DNA of 64,000 bases, taken from contig CAZSUC010000001.1 in assembly GCA_964610055.1 (NCBI GenBank), forward strand, positions 351,994 through 415,993, written 5' to 3'. Made by a program: the position numbers and the translations under genes. A model generated the notes under the pieces. That model searched no databases. It was not told the origin of the DNA and saw only the letters and a program-made list of their open reading frames with translations. Each line of letters starts with the position of its first letter. Position 1 is the stretch's first letter. This document shows, one piece after another, positions 9,503-42,104 of the stretch. The stretch comes from an uncultured Candidatus Saccharibacteria bacterium. GTDB lineage: Bacteria; Patescibacteriota; Andersenbacteria; UBA10190.

Positions 9503-11053
9503 ATGCGTTGGTTACCTCTCATTTACATTATTCTCCTCGGTGGCGTCTTAACCGGCGGCACTATTTGGGTTTATCTTAATCGCAACCCTGTCGCTGCTCC
9601 CGTCTCTGATACCCCTGTTACGACTTTCCAGACTGCCAGCCACCAAACTTCGTTGCGAGTAATTGCTCGGCTTACCGACAATACTTCCTCGCGCGCCGTT
9701 ACTTGTTATCAATCTCAATGCACCACTCAAGAATTTCCAGCCGATGTCTTTACTTATGCTGTTAATGATGGGGAAGCATGGTATTACTATCTTCCCACTC
9801 AAACTGTTACCAAGCATGCGCAAACTTCCGTTACTCCGCTGCCGCTTAATCTCAGCCAATTATCCGGCACTTTAGTCCGTACTGTTTCTGACGCTGATCC
9901 AGTCACTGTCATTGGCCCAACTGACTTAACCGCTCCGCGCGGTCTCTTTGTCAGTCCCGATAGTCAACAACTCGCTTTTTTCCGCGACAATATTCACGAC
10001 TCTTCTCAAAAATTAACTGAACTTTGGCTCTACAATTTTTCTTCCGGCAATGTTCAGCTCATTGGAGAAAACTATTACCAACCCGATATTCGTTCTAACG
10101 TCAGATGGAACAGCGCTTCTAATTACCTCTATTTCATCGGTGATAATGGGCCGCAATCGTCATCCCAGGATGATCTCGAACTTTTATTAGTTTCTACTGA
10201 GTCTCCCGGGACTAAAACGGCTTTCAGCCAAGTCCCTTGGGATGATCTGGTTGATAATTTTAATAATCTTCAAATCGATCTTTCCTCAGATGGGCAAAGC
10301 CTAGTGTATGTTGGCAAATCATTTTTAGGCGCGAGCATTCTTACTGTTATAACTCCCACCGGCACGCAAAAAACCACTATTCGCAGTGCCGTACCTTTTG
10401 TGCAATGGATTGAAGATGGGCGTCTCATATATGCCGTCCAAGATCAGCAAGGCTTCACTTTTTGGCAGCGCAGTTCTGATAACACCCACCGTTTTTTAGC
10501 GCGCCGTCCCGGTGCCGTCACTTCTGCTCGCAGCGACTTAAGCGGGGAATACGTCGTCTTCGCCGTTAATGAATCGCCCGGCATCACTCGCTTCTATTCC
10601 TTGCGTCTCGCTGACGGCACGGTTACCGATGAAGGTAAGATTGCTAACAACAACAGCGAGGTTAGTTTAGCCTATATCCGCCAGGAATTAAGCCTTGCGC
10701 AAGAAACAGCCACCACAACCGCTGCTTATGCTGATAATGAAATCGCCGCTTTTATTGACGCTAATCTTACCAACATTGCCGGTCTCGGCGCACAGCCTCG
10801 CCGTTTTATTCCCACTGATCTGATTAATAACTATTTTCTTGATTACTTGAACTCGCAGGGTCAAGAACAGCGAATTCTGCTGAAAATTAACGATATTCTA
10901 CATAATGAATGGGTTATTAAAGGCCGCTATACCCCTGTTAACGGAACCTGGCGCAAAACTCAAGGTGGGGGCATAGCTGACCCCAAACCCGTTCGTTTGT
11001 ATGAGTGGGAAGATTCTCTGCAGCAATGGATTCAAAAAGATCTCAAAATCTAA
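9503..11053 (+). CDS. membrane-anchored PD40/TolB-like beta-propeller protein (hypothetical)
   Basis: 516 aa with an N-terminal transmembrane helix and repeated PD40-like motifs (FVSPDSQQLAFFRDN, LSSDGQSLVYVG). Confidence 0.45.
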   Translation: MRWLPLIYIILLGGVLTGGTIWVYLNRNPVAAPVSDTPVTTFQTASHQTSLRVIARLTDNTSSRAVTCYQSQCTTQEFPADVFTYAVNDGEAWYYYLPTQTVTKHAQTSVTPLPLNLSQLSGTLVRTVSDADPVTVIGPTDLTAPRGLFVSPDSQQLAFFRDNIHDSSQKLTELWLYNFSSGNVQLIGENYYQPDIRSNVRWNSASNYLYFIGDNGPQSSSQDDLELLLVSTESPGTKTAFSQVPWDDLVDNFNNLQIDLSSDGQSLVYVGKSFLGASILTVITPTGTQKTTIRSAVPFVQWIEDGRLIYAVQDQQGFTFWQRSSDNTHRFLARRPGAVTSARSDLSGEYVVFAVNESPGITRFYSLRLADGTVTDEGKIANNNSEVSLAYIRQELSLAQETATTTAAYADNEIAAFIDANLTNIAGLGAQPRRFIPTDLINNYFLDYLNSQGQEQRILLKINDILHNEWVIKGRYTPVNGTWRKTQGGGIADPKPVRLYEWEDSLQQWIQKDLKI

Positions 11054-14563: not shown

Positions 14564-14746
14564 ATGAACCTCACTCAATTCATCACTGTTCTCGCCGGAG
14601 CATTTATTGTCGTCAGTATTCTTTTTCTTCTGCTTTTTTTCAGCGGATTTTGGGACGAAAAAACTGTTGAAGATTTAGAAAAAGATTATCCTGATTTTTT
14701 TGTTGAAACCACTGTTCTCGTTACCTCTCCGGTTAACACAAACTAA
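14564..14746 (+). CDS. small single-pass membrane protein (hypothetical)
   Basis: 60-aa ORF with a hydrophobic N-terminal half, followed by a terminator hairpin. Confidence 0.3.
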   Translation: MNLTQFITVLAGAFIVVSILFLLLFFSGFWDEKTVEDLEKDYPDFFVETTVLVTSPVNTN

Positions 14747-14758
14747 ACCCCAGCATAA

Positions 14759-14797
14759 CGAAACAACCGCTCCAAATTTGGAACGGTTGTTTTATGA
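14759..14797. terminator. bidirectional terminator hairpin between convergent small genes
   Basis: aaacaaccgctcc-aaattt-ggaacggttgttt followed by a T-run. It sits between the + strand 60-aa ORF and the - strand histone-fold gene. Confidence 0.5.
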
Positions 14798-14817: not shown

Positions 14818-14997
14818 TTATACGTCGTAAGGCTTTACAGTTGCGCGCTTGTTACCTTGGGCGCGGCTAGCACCGGCGTTTAACATTTCCATCACCTTTT
14901 TGTTCAAAGCTGGAACTAAATCACTCGACATTTTTACGCCTTTACCTTTGAGGTAATTGCGAACCTTACTTGCTACTACTAATACTTCTTCTGCCAT
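14818..14997 (-). CDS. bacterial histone-fold DNA-binding protein (HBb/Bd0055-like; 59 aa, not in ORF track)
   Basis: Translation is MAEEVLVVASKVRNYLKGKGVKMSSDLVPALNKKVMEMLNAGASRAQGNKRATVKPYDV. It aligns along its length with Bdellovibrio histone Bd0055 (MAEVLVVTSKVKK…GRKTV…). A GGAGG Shine-Dalgarno sequence lies 7 nt upstream. Confidence 0.7.
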   Translation of the reverse strand: MAEEVLVVASKVRNYLKGKGVKMSSDLVPALNKKVMEMLNAGASRAQGNKRATVKPYDV

Positions 14998-15132
14998 ATG
15001 TTACACCTCCTTCACTAAGCTTGAATTAATAATTATCCACATTTAGCCTGGATTGTACCATTATGGGCTAAACCGGCTCAATTCGGCCTTTCCACAAGCG
15101 TTTATCCAAACTTGCTCTGCTGTCAAGCCGAT

Positions 15133-24066: not shown

Positions 24067-26313
24067 TTATTCTGCCACCGCTTGAATCGGTACCTGCAAT
24101 ACTTGCGTGCCTGACAAAACATAAAGTGAATTTTCATCTGGCGCCAACGCCACATCTCGCACGTTATTCAGACTGTCCAAGAAAATCTGCTGTTTCAGCT
24201 GCCCCTTTTTGGAAAAGATAACTACTCGTTTATTTATGCGGTCAAAAATATACAAATAGTTTGAATCTTCTTGCGTCATGATTTTATCTGCTCCTGCCAA
24301 GCCTGGTGACACTTCGTCTAAAGTAAAATCTAGTGCTTGCCCTTTAAATAGTTCATGTACCGATCCGTCTTCATGCAAAGTGTAGATGCTGCCATCGATC
24401 GTCATGCTTACAATTCCACTGCTTACAAAATTTTGATCCTCAATCCAAGCTACTCCACCGCTGTATCCGCTCAATGTCTTGCTGTAACTAAAAATGTTAT
24501 TTGCCGTTGCATCATAGACGTATAAGCGATTACTATACGCCGCCATTGCTTGAATATTTGGCTCCGAAGACGGGAAGTTAATGCTCTGGGAGCTAAAATT
24601 CCCATCCTTTGTATCCAATGAAGCCATGCCTGGCGCATCAGTTAAATACACGATCGTTTTATCTGCCGATTGAGTAATTGTCTTTTGAATATATCCAATT
24701 CCAGGAGTATTCCGACTTACCACATCCGGTTCACCATTCGTGCTCAAGCGGACAATCGTATTATCTTTAGGACTAAAAGTATAAGCTGCGCCATTAATAA
24801 ACTCTAAGCTAGTTAAAGTCTCGGTCCCTAATATTGACCCAAAATCTCCTATCGTTTTTGTTTCTAAAGACCCGGCATGAGTAATTTTCTGTAATCGATC
24901 CTGAATATCTGTAATCTGCTGTGCTAAGGTCTCAACTTCATTCTCATATGCTCCTAAATTCCTTACTTCTGCCAGGCTTGACTCCGCGTCTACCAGTAAT
25001 TTTGTTGCTTGTTCGCGATTATCATATATCAAGGCCGTTTCTGCTGCGTCGTGTTGGGTTTGAGCTTGGTATAGCAATTCGCTCGCTCGCTGAATTGAAG
25101 CATCTTCAGTTTTTTTATCTTTTAATAAAACAATGCTTGTCCCTAAAGCGATTGCTAATAAAATGGCAACAACACCAAAAATTTTGCTTGTCCGTGGCAG
25201 GGAATATAATCGCGCCAGCCCTAAAAGAATTAGCCGTATTGGCATTGTTATAACCGCTTTCAAACTCTCTAATAAACTCCGCTTTGGTAAGGTCGTTTCC
25301 TGTCTCACTTTTTTCTCTTTATGTCGTATCCTGAGCCATGCCGACTGGAGTTTAGTACCAGAATTACGTGATGCGCTCCCCATGGCGTTGCCGCCACGTC
25401 GTAATAACCGACCCATTAAAGGCGCTGCTTTCGTTAGTATCCAATGCCCACTCACCACGATGCCTCGTACTATTAAAATTAAAACTGTCTTACCAATAGA
25501 TTTTTTAATCTGTAACGGACGTCTTGGCTGCAGTGACGTTTGTACTCCACGCTGGCGTTGTTTATCAGTTACATTTACATTTTGATCCTGACTTACAGTT
25601 ACCGGCACCGAAGCTTTGTGTCGCGGTAAAATTGAAACTACAACTGTGCTTAAAGGAACATTAGCTCCTTGATCTTGGTACAGTTGACGCATCTTATTGC
25701 TAATTTCAGCCGATGACCGTTCTTCCGCAAAACGTAATAAGTCTTGCGGCCGGTAAATATTCATCATTGCCGGCGTGCCTAAATACAACACGTCATAATT
25801 ACTAATTTTCCCGCTCGCAACCTGACCAAAACTACGCAACGGATGCGTAATCACTTCCTCTGCTAAACTATCAGTCGCTTCTACAACCTGTCCGCTCCTT
25901 ACAATATAAATACCAGCTAAACCAGCGGCACTCACATGCACCCATTGTCCTGCCACCGCTGCCACCGCTACATGAAAATGCTGCATCCATTCTCGCCAGC
26001 CTCGCTCAGCCGTATCATGTAACACTAAATTAGCTTGATGTAGTGCCGATTCAAAACCAGACAACATGTTTCTTTTTGGGTCACGATAATACTCTCTTTG
26101 TAACGCTTGCACTACTGTTTCTAATAATTCCGTGCCCGCTCCATCCATATTTTTCGTCTCGCCTACAATATATAAGTGCCCTAAGTCTCGTTCTTCCGGA
26201 GCTGGCTCAAAAATGTACGACTCGCAAATAAATTCATCGCGCCCGCCAACTAATAATTCATTCGCGTCGTTAATATACAATTCATTCGGCTCGCTGCCTG
26301 TTCTCATGCCCAC
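24067..26313 (-). CDS. PP2C-like phosphatase domain / TM / coiled-coil / C-terminal beta-propeller protein (hypothetical signalling protein)
   Basis: The N-terminus has PPM-like motifs (…VGETKNMDGAGTEL… resembling DGMGGH, and …STVVVSIL resembling DN.TVVVV). A transmembrane segment near residue 370 is followed by a coiled coil and repeated beta-propeller-like blades. Confidence 0.5.
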   Translation of the reverse strand: MGMRTGSEPNELYINDANELLVGGRDEFICESYIFEPAPEERDLGHLYIVGETKNMDGAGTELLETVVQALQREYYRDPKRNMLSGFESALHQANLVLHDTAERGWREWMQHFHVAVAAVAGQWVHVSAAGLAGIYIVRSGQVVEATDSLAEEVITHPLRSFGQVASGKISNYDVLYLGTPAMMNIYRPQDLLRFAEERSSAEISNKMRQLYQDQGANVPLSTVVVSILPRHKASVPVTVSQDQNVNVTDKQRQRGVQTSLQPRRPLQIKKSIGKTVLILIVRGIVVSGHWILTKAAPLMGRLLRRGGNAMGSASRNSGTKLQSAWLRIRHKEKKVRQETTLPKRSLLESLKAVITMPIRLILLGLARLYSLPRTSKIFGVVAILLAIALGTSIVLLKDKKTEDASIQRASELLYQAQTQHDAAETALIYDNREQATKLLVDAESSLAEVRNLGAYENEVETLAQQITDIQDRLQKITHAGSLETKTIGDFGSILGTETLTSLEFINGAAYTFSPKDNTIVRLSTNGEPDVVSRNTPGIGYIQKTITQSADKTIVYLTDAPGMASLDTKDGNFSSQSINFPSSEPNIQAMAAYSNRLYVYDATANNIFSYSKTLSGYSGGVAWIEDQNFVSSGIVSMTIDGSIYTLHEDGSVHELFKGQALDFTLDEVSPGLAGADKIMTQEDSNYLYIFDRINKRVVIFSKKGQLKQQIFLDSLNNVRDVALAPDENSLYVLSGTQVLQVPIQAVAE

Positions 26314-40511: not shown

Positions 40512-42104
40512 TTGCTCGCCCGCCCGCAACCAAGTACTCTAAAGGGGTACTTAAGTTGCGTTATGGAAATTCGCCCCCAAATCAAACAATTAAAATCCGC
40601 TCCTGAAGAAACCCCGACCGTTGCTGGCGGGGAACCAATCACCGTCTCGCCGGCCACAAAACGCATTGCTTTTGCGTATGAGCGTTTTCGTAATACTTTA
40701 GAGCCAGAAGAAGCCGATATCTTACGCCGCCAAGCTATTGTTAGGATCTTGGTTCGTCGGTTAGGAGAAAATCGTCCTCCGCGAGTTTCTGCTGAACAGA
40801 TCTTGCAAGAGCTTATCCGCGCGAATTACATTCCTCCTGTTACTACCGTATCGATTCCGCCTGTCGCTCGGTATCTCGAAAAAATTCAATATTTACGTCA
40901 GCATCTTGATCCCGAGTTAACTGCTTGGTTCCTTAACATTGCTGCTGTTTCTATCGACCGTTTATTCTACCCCTGGACTCGTCAAGAAGGCTTAATTACT
41001 CTCATGTATCAGGATGTTTTTGGCCGGACTGAATGGATGGATGATCTGGTTGCACCAAAAGATCGTCCGACTCAAACTTATATTGCTTGTCATCGCGCTT
41101 TATTCGAAGCGGATGATTATGAGATTACTTACCACTACTTTGTTCATTATTTCCCTGAATGGACAGCTCCTGACGCTAAACCCGAACAACTTAATCGTAT
41201 TGTTCAAGATTTACCTGGTTTTTATGCTCGTCTTACCGAATCAATTAACCACTCTGGCCGCGATCGCCTTACTCGATTATTGCGTCCCGCTTCTGTGCCT
41301 TATCGTATTATTGGCGATTTACTTAAAACTCAGTCAGAAGATCAACTTGCTCGTCCGGAAGATCTAACTGCTGCGACTCAAGAAGCTGTCACTAAGCGAG
41401 CTCAAAAATTACGCAGCAGTATGGGGAAGAGAGCCTGGCATAGCATTCTCTTCTTGTTTTGTACTAAAACTGTTCTTGCTTTTTTGCTCGAAGTTCCATA
41501 TGAGCTATTAGCCGTCAGCGCGATTCATTGGTTAGCCTTAGCCATCAATATTGCTTTTCATCCTTTACTTTTGCTCTTTTTAACCGTTTCTGTCCGTTTG
41601 CCTGGCCATGACAACACCAGTCGCATTGCCGAACAACTACAAAAGATTATTAGCGGCACTGGCGAATTACCAACTATTATCATTCGTAAGCCGCGAAGTT
41701 ACGGAGCCGCAACCTGGACTGTTTTTGCTCTTTTTTATGTCATTCTTTTCTTGCTCATTTTCTGGGGAATCTTCAGTCTTCTTGGGCTCTTGCATTTCTC
41801 GCTCATGGCCATGTTTATGTTTGTCATGTTCTTAGGCTTAGTTAGTTTCTTGGCAATGCGTATTCGTCGTTCGGTTAATCAAATTCGCCTGATCCCTGCT
41901 CGCGAAGGCGCTTTAGGAGCGTTTGTTACTTTCCTTAGTTTGCCAATTTTAGAATTCGGTCGTTGGCTTGCTCAAAACATCCAACAATTAAACGTTTTTC
42001 TTTTCTTCATGGATCATATTTTAGAAGCTCCCTTTAAAATTCTGATTGATATTATTGAAGAGTGGTTTGATTTTGTTCGTGACCGTCAGGAAGAAATCGC
42101 TTAA
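40512..42104 (+). CDS. hypothetical membrane protein (soluble N-terminal about 330 aa, C-terminal about 5 TM)
   Basis: 530-aa ORF (possible start Met 40563). No recognisable family. Confidence 0.4.
   Translation: MLARPQPSTLKGYLSCVMEIRPQIKQLKSAPEETPTVAGGEPITVSPATKRIAFAYERFRNTLEPEEADILRRQAIVRILVRRLGENRPPRVSAEQILQELIRANYIPPVTTVSIPPVARYLEKIQYLRQHLDPELTAWFLNIAAVSIDRLFYPWTRQEGLITLMYQDVFGRTEWMDDLVAPKDRPTQTYIACHRALFEADDYEITYHYFVHYFPEWTAPDAKPEQLNRIVQDLPGFYARLTESINHSGRDRLTRLLRPASVPYRIIGDLLKTQSEDQLARPEDLTAATQEAVTKRAQKLRSSMGKRAWHSILFLFCTKTVLAFLLEVPYELLAVSAIHWLALAINIAFHPLLLLFLTVSVRLPGHDNTSRIAEQLQKIISGTGELPTIIIRKPRSYGAATWTVFALFYVILFLLIFWGIFSLLGLLHFSLMAMFMFVMFLGLVSFLAMRIRRSVNQIRLIPAREGALGAFVTFLSLPILEFGRWLAQNIQQLNVFLFFMDHILEAPFKILIDIIEEWFDFVRDRQEEIA

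What the first reader, a model, noticed from the sequence alone, without database searches (positions are those of the whole stretch)
14818..14997. Unannotated 59-aa histone-fold protein (HBb/Bd0055-like) with its own Shine-Dalgarno sequence and terminator
This minus-strand ORF is just below the 60-aa cut-off. It translates to MAEEVLVVASKVRNYLKGKGVKMSSDLVPALNKKVMEMLNAGASRAQGNKRATVKPYDV. It aligns position-by-position with the Bdellovibrio histone Bd0055/HBb (MAEVLVVTSKVKKLIKEKG…AKADGRKTV…), including the RxT-like …NKRAT… DNA-contact region of the histone fold. A strong GGAGG Shine-Dalgarno sequence sits upstream and a hairpin downstream. Bacterial histones are rare, so this may mark a lineage whose nucleoid uses a histone-fold protein.
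Basis: partly seen in the sequence, partly recalled or inferred. Interest (0 to 1): 0.65.

Follow-up and report, generated by a model that had tools for sequence, protein, structure and literature searches.

The report
Face-to-face-type bacterial histone gene

Summary
The ORF 14818-14997(-) encodes the stated 59-aa peptide. It has a 9-nt Shine-Dalgarno sequence (AAGGAGGTG, the only copy in 64 kb), a conserved sigma-70-type promoter with an extended -10, and a 14-bp terminator hairpin.

It is a real gene. dN/dS is 0.06-0.20. Synteny (L10-YceG-NTP-transferase-CAP-histone-sortase-MurB) is fixed in 14 Andersenbacteria-like genomes, and 1,412 representative clusters are related.

It is a histone-fold protein of the alpha3-truncated class. 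The six best fold matches are HLp, HBb and HTkC.

The family profile scores 76.5 bits against HLp of Leptospira perolatii, a face-to-face (FtF) tetramer that wraps about 60 bp of DNA, against 36 bits for HBb/Bd0055. The protein carries the FtF tetramer-interface residues R45, N49 and R51, where HBb has S, D and R. It also ends one residue after the clamp aspartate, as FtF histones do. I could not model the tetramer state here.

This is not new for the lineage. Hocher et al. 2023, Supplementary Table 1, lists two Andersenbacteria orthologues. Pfam histone models miss all 64 family members, which may explain why these proteins usually go unnamed.

Verdict: a new member of a known kind, of moderate-to-low interest.

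The parts
14818..14997 (-). Coding sequence of a 59-aa alpha3-truncated histone of FtF type (stop codon included). The protein is 6.4 kDa, with pI 10.0 and net charge about +5.5.
   Evidence: Translation. Homologues. PDB matches. AlphaFold2 model with helices at 9-18, 27-48 and 56-58. Foldseek. dN/dS 0.06-0.20. pI and charge.
15004..15012 (-). Shine-Dalgarno sequence AAGGAGGTG, 6 nt upstream of the ATG.
   Evidence: Sequence. Only copy in the window. Identical in all 15 syntenic orthologues.
15052..15081 (-). Sigma-70-type promoter: TTGAGC, an 18-nt spacer, then TACAAT, with TG upstream of the -10 (extended -10, TGGTACAAT).
   Evidence: Consensus scan. In a 12-genome alignment the TTG of the -35 element and the bases G, TA and AAT of the -10 element are invariant.
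15032..15043 (-). Conserved motif (A/G)ATGTGGATAAT, lying at or just after the inferred transcription start. Its function is unknown.
   Evidence: Present as GATGTGGAWAA in 8 of 12 aligned upstream regions. Not enriched elsewhere in the window.
14761..14792 (-). Intrinsic-terminator-like hairpin with a 14-bp stem and 4-nt loop. It is flanked by an A-tract and a U-rich tail, and lies between the histone gene and the convergent small ORF at 14564-14746.
   Evidence: Fold: (z = -4.85). A hairpin plus T-tract is present downstream of all 15 orthologues, with unrelated sequences. The simple terminator scan missed it.

Best explanation
The ORF encodes an alpha3-truncated, 'face-to-face' (FtF) type bacterial histone. 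It lies on the chromosome of an Andersenbacteria-like (Patescibacteria/CPR) bacterium.

Shown here:
- It is a real gene under purifying selection.
- It is a single transcription unit, with a conserved near-consensus promoter, the strongest Shine-Dalgarno sequence in the window, and its own terminator.
- The protein is basic.
- The model has the fold alpha1 - loop 1 - alpha2 - loop 2 - one-turn alpha3.
- Its closest solved relative is HLp of Leptospira perolatii.

Inferred by homology to HLp (Hu et al. 2025) and HTkC (Schwab et al. 2024):
- Two chains form a head-to-tail histone dimer.
- Two dimers close into a torus-shaped tetramer. The contacts are R45 to the C-terminal carboxylate (V59), and N49 to R51 of the opposing dimer.
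- The positively charged rim binds the DNA backbone without sequence specificity. The rim residues are A9-S10-K11, R13 and K17 on alpha1, loop 1, and T53 on loop 2.
- About 60 bp of DNA wraps around the tetramer.

In that case the protein would act as an abundant nucleoid-organising protein.
For: Gene reality:
- 64 homologues of about 59 aa, with 14 invariant columns.
- dN/dS of 0.06-0.20, and identity by codon position of about 0.8, 0.84 and 0.4.
- The gene order L10-YceG-NTP_transferase-CAP-histone-sortase-MurB recurs in 14 genomes. The histone (62-73% identity) is more conserved than its neighbours (40-60%).

Expression signals:
- The promoter, Shine-Dalgarno sequence and terminator are conserved across orthologues.
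- The 9-mer Shine-Dalgarno sequence occurs once in the window.

Fold:
- AlphaFold2 mean pLDDT of 79.7, with helices at 9-18, 27-48 and 56-58.
- The top six Foldseek PDB hits are HLp (TM 0.78), HBb and HTkC, followed by eukaryotic H4 and similar.

Subfamily:
- phmmer gives HLp 1.6e-10 against HBb 5e-4.
- The family profile scores 76.5 bits for HLp, 36 for HBb and 34 for HTkC.
- HLp tetramer residues R49, N53 and R55 correspond to R45, N49 and R51 here. All three are invariant in alignment A1.
- R45, D58 and exactly one residue after D58 are found in 80 of 80 genome-derived relatives. HBb has S and D at positions 45 and 49.
- In the search without a word index, 163 of 182 domains have the R+N pair, and 129 end one residue after the clamp aspartate.
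- HLp DNA contacts A13, S14, K15, K17, K21 and T57 correspond to A9, S10, K11, R13, K17 and T53.
- A haloarchaeal megaplasmid protein annotated 'DUF1931 domain-containing protein' (Salinibaculum sp.) is 44% identical.
- pI 10.0.
Against: - The quaternary state, which is the defining FtF feature, was not tested.
- Some HLp interface and contact residues differ: S52 is G48 here, T61 is Y57, F63 is V59, T27 is M23, G29 is S25 and T56 is A52.
- Unlike the Leptospira histones, the protein has no basic N-terminal tail. It starts MAEE.
- There are no expression or abundance data.
- Part of the invariance of N49, R51 and T53 in the genome-derived set comes from the search pattern used.
- The neighbouring genes (CAP-domain protein, sortase) give no functional link to chromosome biology, unlike the SMC neighbourhood of hlp in Leptospira.
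Confidence: 0.7

Rival explanations
1. This is the first reader's view: an HBb/Bd0055-type 'bacterial dimer' histone. It would stay dimeric and bend DNA, or coat it end-on, rather than wrap it.
For: - There is significant homology to HBb: E = 5e-4 for the single sequence and 6e-8 for the profile.
- HBb structures rank third to sixth in Foldseek, with TM 0.74.
- The two share the S-K motif in alpha1, the short alpha2 and the one-turn alpha3.
- The tetramer state was not verified here.
Against: - The profile score for HBb is 40 bits lower than for HLp.
- The protein has R45 and N49, which bacterial dimer histones lack by definition in Schwab 2024. HBb has S and D there.
- Loop 2 reads R-A-T rather than R-K-T.
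- The chain ends one residue after the clamp aspartate, whereas the solved HBb chains run several residues further: in the alignments the clamp aspartate is residue 58 of the 64-residue chain 8fvx_A and residue 60 of the 66-residue chain 8cmp_A. Some Bdellovibrionaceae homologues in the Hocher 2023 alignment also carry longer C-termini.
Confidence: 0.2
2. A histone-fold protein that is not a general chromatin protein. Examples would be a specific regulator, a protein-protein adaptor, or a DUF1931-like protein that does not bind DNA.
For: - Schwab 2024 cautions that not all prokaryotic histone-fold proteins need be genome organisers.
- UniRef labels an orthologue 'DUF1931 domain-containing protein'.
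- There are no expression data here.
Against: - It is a 59-aa singlet, not a DUF1931 pseudodimer. Its Pfam DUF1931 score is below the cut-off, at 13.2 against 21.8 bits.
- The DNA-backbone contact residues of HLp are conserved or invariant.
- pI is 10.
- The expression signals are of the strongest kind: the only perfect 9-nt Shine-Dalgarno sequence in the window and a conserved extended -10 promoter.
Confidence: 0.08
3. A chance ORF, or a recently transferred phage or plasmid gene, rather than a resident chromosomal gene.
For: - The ORF is short, and ORFs of this size are frequent by chance.
- The phyletic distribution of bacterial histones is patchy.
Against: - Purifying selection.
- A fixed chromosomal position in 14 genomes, among housekeeping genes.
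- No phage match, and only one archaeal megaplasmid match.
Confidence: 0.02

Closest known systems
HLp, the FtF histone of Leptospira perolatii (PDB 9QT0, 9QT1, 9QT2; Hu et al., Nat Commun 2025, PMC12701072)
   Same: - It is the best sequence and fold match: 42-43% identity, 76.5 profile bits and TM 0.78.
- It has the same alpha3-truncated fold.
- It has the same tetramer-interface triad (R49, N53, R55 in HLp; R45, N49, R51 here).
- It has the same RxTxxxxD motif and RD clamp.
- It has the same A-S-K 'paired ends of helices' DNA contacts.
- Both chains end one residue after the clamp aspartate.
   Different: - This protein has no N-terminal tail (59 aa against 63 aa; it starts MAEE).
- Several secondary interface and contact residues differ: G48, Y57, V59, M23, S25 and A52.
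- The genomic neighbourhood differs: CAP-domain protein and sortase here, SMC, MAP and DUF350 in Leptospira.
- The host is a CPR bacterium with a genome of about 0.7 Mb.
- Tetramerisation and DNA wrapping are untested for this protein.
HBb / Bd0055, the 'bacterial dimer' histone of Bdellovibrio bacteriovorus (PDB 8FVX, 8CMP, 9EZZ; Hocher 2023, Hu 2024)
   Same: - It is a bacterial singlet alpha3 histone.
- It shares the S-K motif in alpha1, the short alpha2, the one-turn alpha3 and the RD clamp.
- Identity is about 35%.
   Different: - HBb lacks the R and N interface residues; it has S and D.
- HBb has R-K-T in loop 2.
- HBb has one extra residue in loop 1.
- The solved HBb chains continue for several residues past the clamp aspartate.
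- HBb is strictly dimeric and bends DNA.
HTkC (Thermococcus kodakarensis, PDB 9F2C) and haloarchaeal FtF histones such as D4GZE0
   Same: - HTkC is an FtF torus tetramer.
- It shares the conserved R, N, R, T and D positions and the C-terminus one residue after D.
- HTkC gives a profile hit of 34 bits and TM 0.76.
- A Salinibaculum megaplasmid protein annotated 'DUF1931 domain-containing protein', which I take to be of this type, is 44% identical.
   Different: - These proteins are archaeal, and in the published maps they form a separate sequence cluster from the bacterial FtF histones.
- Identity to HTkC is 26%.
Andersenbacteria histone-fold proteins OGY33174.1 and PIT98311.1 (Hocher 2023, Supplementary Table 1; UniRef A0A2M6WZT5, 'DUF1931 domain-containing protein')
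   Same: - These are orthologues: 59 aa, 68-69% identity.
- The genome that holds OGY33174.1 (locus L006) has the same synteny as the window.
   Different: - They come from a different species or genus. The neighbouring proteins are only 40-60% identical.
- The papers list them but neither discusses nor characterises them.

Membership tests
alpha3-truncated histones (Schwab et al. 2024) | A histone fold: alpha1 - loop 1 - long alpha2 - loop 2 - alpha3. | tested here: met
   The AlphaFold2 model has helices at 9-18, 27-48 and 56-58. The top Foldseek PDB hits are all histones.
alpha3-truncated histones (Schwab et al. 2024) | alpha3 is reduced to 3-4 residues, and alpha2 is shorter than in nucleosomal histones. 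| tested here: met
   alpha3 spans residues 56-58 and the chain ends at 59. alpha2 has 22 residues.
alpha3-truncated histones (Schwab et al. 2024) | The RxTxxxxD motif (RD clamp plus the loop-2 threonine). | tested here: met
   The motif is R51-A-T53-V-K-P-Y-D58. R51, T53 and D58 are invariant in alignment A1 and in 80 of 80 loci.
Face-to-face (FtF) histones | A torus-shaped homotetramer, a dimer of dimers closed through two interfaces. This is the defining feature. | not testable with these tools
   Only single-chain prediction is offered.
Face-to-face (FtF) histones | The conserved dimer-dimer interface residues: R48 and N52 in HMM numbering, R49 and N53 in HLp, plus R55 in HLp. | tested here: met
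   R45, N49 and R51 are invariant in alignment A1. The R+N pair is present in 163 of 182 domains of the search made without a word index.
Face-to-face (FtF) histones | The C-terminal carboxylate lies one residue after the clamp aspartate, where it can form a salt bridge with the interface arginine. | tested here: met
   The chain ends D58-V59-stop. Exactly one residue follows the aspartate in 80 of 80 loci, as in HLp (D62-F63) and D4GZE0 (D54 plus residue 55).
Face-to-face (FtF) histones | The sequence clusters with bacterial FtF histones rather than with other histone families. | tested here: met
   The profile scores 76.5 bits for HLp, 36 for HBb and 34 for HTkC. No nucleosomal archaeal histone appears at E <= 1. 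I did not reproduce the full CLANS map.
Bacterial dimer histones (HBb/Bd0055 type) | Sequence clustering with HBb, and absence of R48 and N52. | tested here: not met
   The protein has R45 and N49. HBb has S and D at those positions. The HBb score is 40 bits below the HLp score.
DUF1931 pseudodimeric histones (PF09123; for example A. aeolicus AQ328, T. thermophilus 1WWI) | Two histone folds in one chain, a match to PF09123, and no DNA-binding signature residues. | tested here: not met
   The protein is a 59-aa singlet. PF09123 scores 13.2 bits against a cut-off of 21.8. The best E-value among the 64 family members is 0.05. The DNA-contact residues are present.
Nucleosomal archaeal histones (HMfB type; PF00808) | A full-length alpha3 of about 10 residues, a longer alpha2, a four-helix-bundle tetramer interface, and a match to PF00808. 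| tested here: not met
   alpha3 is a single turn. PF00808 is not reported for this protein at E <= 10, and its best E-value in the family is 0.01. No HMf chain appears in the PDB profile search.
CRISPR repeat-binding protein Cbp1 (NF040595) | A match to the NCBIfam equivalog model at its cut-off. | tested here: not met
   The score is 20.2 bits against a cut-off of 140. I treat it as a chance helical match.

The most novel reading that the evidence does not exclude
In Andersenbacteria-like CPR bacteria, which have genomes of about 0.6-0.7 Mb, a tail-less FtF histone may be the principal nucleoid protein. It has been kept at one chromosomal locus through deep divergence and carries the strongest expression signals seen in this window. 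It could partly or wholly replace HU/IHF, as the FtF histone appears to do in Leptospira. That would make this a CPR lineage with tetrasome-like, histone-wrapped chromatin. Nothing here excludes this reading: no HU/IHF was found in the 64 kb examined. But neither the rest of the genome nor expression could be examined.
Probability: 0.25. Interest if true: 0.65.

Novelty: new member of a known kind. Interest (0 to 1): 0.35.

Why it matters
Bacterial histones occur in under 2% of genomes (Hocher 2023), and only two, HBb and HLp, have been characterised.

This gene adds a clean, tail-less, minimal (59-aa) FtF-type example from the Candidate Phyla Radiation. Chromatin organisation in that group is essentially unstudied, and its reduced genomes make the set of nucleoid proteins small.

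The fixed synteny and conserved promoter show persistence within the clade rather than a transient transfer.

There is also a practical point. Pfam histone models miss the whole family, so annotation pipelines will usually leave it as a hypothetical protein or not call it at all. The R-x3-N-x-R-x-T-x4-D-x-COOH signature gives a simple way to sort such singlets into FtF and dimer types.

However, the family and its presence in Andersenbacteria are already in published supplementary data and in UniProt and IMG. The finding refines what is known and does not overturn it.

Tried and rejected
1. Pfam and NCBIfam scans of the protein gave only sub-threshold hits: DUF1931 at 13.2 bits, YaiO, and Cbp1 at 20 bits against a cut-off of 140. 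A scan of all 64 family members also never reached threshold. Standard domain libraries therefore cannot settle the classification. I rejected Cbp1 and YaiO as chance matches.

2. I tried a tetramer prediction with a four-copy construct joined by GGGGS linkers, with a matched concatenated alignment (A3). Quaternary structure is therefore untested.

3. I searched the window and 82 loci for HU/IHF by tblastn, using E. coli HupA and B. subtilis HBsu recalled from memory. Nothing was found.

4. I looked in the Hocher 2023 supplements for HU presence per genome. It is not recorded there.

5. Literature searches for 'histone fold' plus Patescibacteria, and for histone plus 'candidate phyla radiation', found no relevant paper. 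The main texts of Hocher 2023, Schwab 2024 and Hu 2025 do not mention Patescibacteria, and neither do the Schwab supplements that are held as text.

6. I asked whether the conserved motif GATGTGGATAAT is a general promoter element of this genome. It is not enriched in the window: 6 matches against 5.7 expected.

7. The simple terminator scan missed the real hairpin. Folding the region found it.

8. A phage or plasmid origin was rejected. There is no phage hit and only one haloarchaeal megaplasmid hit.

9. Rfam found no RNA families near the gene, only six tRNAs elsewhere in the window.

Full report
**Observation.**
- Six nucleotides upstream of the ATG lies AAGGAGGTG (15004-15012). This is a 9-nt Shine-Dalgarno sequence and the only copy in the 64-kb window.
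- Downstream, at 14761-14792, a 14-bp stem with a 4-nt loop folds together with a small preceding hairpin at -26.6 kcal/mol. The z-score against dinucleotide shuffles is -4.85.
- A sigma-70-like promoter lies at 15081-15052: TTGAGC, an 18-nt spacer, then TACAAT with an upstream TG.

**Is it a gene?** An ORF of this length is expected by chance: there are 59 ORFs of at least 40 aa in 8 kb here. The case therefore rests on comparison.
- A search of 5.8 billion proteins found 64 relatives with E down to 7e-29. Nearly all are 58-62 aa, and 14 columns are invariant.
- A scan of one genome per species found 105 encoding loci.
- In 14 of them, MAGs labelled Andersenbacteria or labelled more coarsely, the gene sits in the same order: L10 - YceG - NTP-transferase - CAP-domain protein - histone - sortase - MurB.
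- In those genomes the neighbours are 40-60% identical while the histone is 62-73% identical.
- Between orthologues, synonymous sites are saturated and dN is about 0.2. Where it can be estimated, dN/dS is 0.06-0.20. Identity by codon position is about 0.8, 0.84 and 0.4.
- All 15 syntenic genes carry the identical AAGGAGGTG at the same spacing. Each also has a strong hairpin plus T-tract downstream, with unrelated sequence.
- In a 12-genome alignment of the upstream regions, the TTG of the -35 element and the TGGTAcAAT extended -10 element are invariant or nearly so.

This is a resident chromosomal gene, transcribed on its own and under purifying selection. The window itself is ordinary chromosome, with genes for Clp ATPase, a PBP, DnaK, DnaB, MurB, L10/L12 and tRNAs.

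**What the protein is.** Standard domain libraries do not settle this.
- Pfam DUF1931 scores 13.2 bits against a cut-off of 21.8, and CBFD_NFYB_HMF is not reported at all.
- None of the 64 family members reaches threshold for any histone model.
- NCBIfam gives only a spurious Cbp1 match, 20 bits against a cut-off of 140.

Comparison with solved structures is decisive.
- phmmer finds HLp of Leptospira perolatii (9QT0) at E = 1.6e-10, HBb/Bd0055 (8FVX, 8CMP) at about 5e-4, and HTkC (9F2C) at E = 1.
- With the family profile the scores are 76.5, 36 and 34 bits.
- An AlphaFold2 model built from the 64-sequence alignment has mean pLDDT 79.7. It shows alpha1 at residues 9-18, alpha2 at 27-48 and a one-turn alpha3 at 56-58.
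- Its six best Foldseek matches in the PDB are HLp (TM 0.78), HBb and HTkC, followed by eukaryotic H4, CENP-A partners and NF-Y.
- The protein is basic, with pI 10.0 and a charge of about +5.5.

It is therefore an alpha3-truncated histone in the sense of Schwab et al. 2024.

**Which subfamily?** The literature separates two subfamilies.
[quoted passage not shown] HLp wraps about 60 bp of DNA.
- 'Bacterial dimer' histones, such as HBb, stay dimeric and bend DNA.

The stated discriminators are the dimer-dimer interface residues: R48 and N52 in HMM numbering, or R49 and N53 in HLp, with R55. These are conserved in FtF histones and absent from bacterial dimers. Using the alignment and an offset of -4 from HLp numbering, they correspond to R45, N49 and R51 here.
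- All three are invariant in the family.
- HBb has S, D and R at those positions.
- In FtF structures the interface arginine pairs with the C-terminal carboxylate one residue after the clamp aspartate. This protein ends D58-V59-stop.
- All 80 genome-derived relatives also end exactly one residue after the aspartate, and all have R45.

N49, R51 and T53 in that set are partly fixed by the search pattern used. I therefore repeated the count on the 150 best hits of a HMMER search that uses no word index, run against 1.84 billion representatives. There, 163 of 182 domains have the R+N pair, and 129 end one residue after the aspartate.

Other points agree:
- Loop 2 reads R-A-T rather than the R-K-T of the dimer class.
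- The DNA-backbone contacts seen in the HLp-DNA crystals (A13, S14, K15, K17, K21, T57) correspond to A9, S10, K11, R13, K17 and T53. These are invariant or conservatively substituted.
- A haloarchaeal megaplasmid protein annotated 'DUF1931 domain-containing protein', which I take to be of the FtF type, is 44% identical.

The defining feature itself, the tetramer, could not be tested.

**Most likely mechanism.**
- Shown: the protein is a basic alpha3 histone fold whose gene carries strong, conserved expression signals.
- Inferred from HLp and HTkC: head-to-tail dimers pair through R45 to the C-terminal carboxylate and through N49 to R51, closing into a tetramer. The positively charged rim of the tetramer binds the DNA backbone non-specifically and wraps roughly 60 bp.
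- On that basis the protein would act as an abundant nucleoid organiser. I put this at about 0.7.

The main rival, at about 0.2, is an HBb-like dimer that bends DNA. A function outside chromatin gets about 0.08. A chance or mobile-element ORF is effectively excluded: there is no phage hit, synteny is fixed, and selection is evident.

**Differences from HLp.**
- This protein has no N-terminal tail; it starts MAEE.
- Secondary interface and contact positions differ: G48, Y57, V59, M23, S25 and A52.
- The neighbours are surface-protein genes rather than SMC, MAP and DUF350.

**Novelty.**
- Hocher et al. 2023 already list two Andersenbacteria orthologues and a 'Patescibacteria group' histone in Supplementary Table 1 and in the alignment behind their Fig. 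1c. The two orthologues are OGY33174.1, from the genome of my locus L006, and PIT98311.1, which is my P0033.
- UniRef names one of them 'DUF1931 domain-containing protein', and IMG names several relatives 'histone H3/H4'.
- None of the three key papers mentions Patescibacteria in its main text. No paper in the library links histone folds to the CPR.
- The finding is therefore a new member of a known kind. The useful refinement is that it belongs with the FtF (HLp) type rather than with HBb.

**HU/IHF.** Whether these organisms lack HU/IHF remains open. None is encoded in this 64-kb window or in the flanks of the relatives, but the rest of the genome was out of reach.

**Verdict.**
The histone fold, the expression signals and the lineage marker are right. 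The subfamily, and with it the implied mechanism, is probably wrong. The claim to novelty is overstated.
- Interest is 0.35.

Noticed in passing
window 15032-15043 (-), and alignment A2 of the upstream regions of L003-L077: The motif GATGTGGAWAA lies just downstream of the conserved -10 element, at the inferred start of the transcript or 5'UTR of the histone gene. It is kept in 8 of 12 syntenic genomes even though the surrounding spacer has diverged. It is not enriched elsewhere in the window (6 matches against 5.7 expected). It could be a regulatory or autoregulatory site, or an initial-transcribed-sequence element.
   Followed up: partly
proteins P0070, P0073, P0075, P0077-P0080, P0085 and others: 49 of the 150 best representative hits are longer than 95 aa. 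Many are about 118-130 aa with two matched stretches. These are tandem doublets of FtF-type alpha3 histone folds, and each half keeps the R..N.R.T....D signature. They would be covalent 'pseudodimers' distinct from DUF1931. A search of the main text of Schwab 2024 for 'doublet', 'pseudodimer', 'tandem' and 'fused' turned up no description of alpha3-type doublets. I did not check whether these are real fusions or errors in gene calling.
   Followed up: partly
window 14564-14746 (+): A 60-aa ORF converges on the histone gene and shares its terminator hairpin. It has a hydrophobic N-terminal segment (MNLTQFITVLAGAFIVVSILFLLLFFSGF...). It is called as a gene in the Logan assemblies, but among the syntenic loci it has only one weak relative (L012, 34%). 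It may be a lineage-specific small membrane protein, or it may be spurious.
   Followed up: partly
window 24067-26313 (-), 9503-11053 (+), 40512-42104 (+): Three large ORFs (748, 516 and 530 aa) have no Pfam match at E <= 1e-5. Proteins like this are typical of the uncharacterised content of CPR genomes.
   Followed up: no
alignment A1, all 64 members: No member of this histone family reaches the Pfam gathering threshold for CBFD_NFYB_HMF, Histone or DUF1931. The best E-values are 0.01, 0.087 and 0.05. Pfam-based pipelines will therefore miss the family, and all 64 have no precomputed Pfam domain.
   Followed up: yes
loci L005, L007, L008, L010, L011, L013 and L033, and loci L016, L018, L019, L021, L027, L030, L038 and L040: MAGs labelled 'uncultured Candidatus Saccharibacteria' share the Andersenbacteria gene order around the histone, so those labels are probably coarse. 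Relatives at 49-59% identity also occur in MAGs labelled Pseudomonadota, Gammaproteobacteria or Actinomycetes. Either those contigs were binned wrongly or the gene has been transferred horizontally.
   Followed up: no
plasmid NZ_CP129994.1, 536434-536589 (Salinibaculum sp. KK48, 560-kb replicon): A haloarchaeal megaplasmid encodes a protein 44% identical to the CPR histone. It is annotated 'DUF1931 domain-containing protein'. This fits the published remark that Halobacteria carry extra FtF histones on plasmids.
   Followed up: no
protein P0193 (986 aa): A long repeat protein matches the alpha1/loop-1 part of the profile nine times, through repeats of the form ATTLRGYLQKSDIEV. This is probably a low-complexity or repeat artefact rather than a histone.
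   Followed up: no
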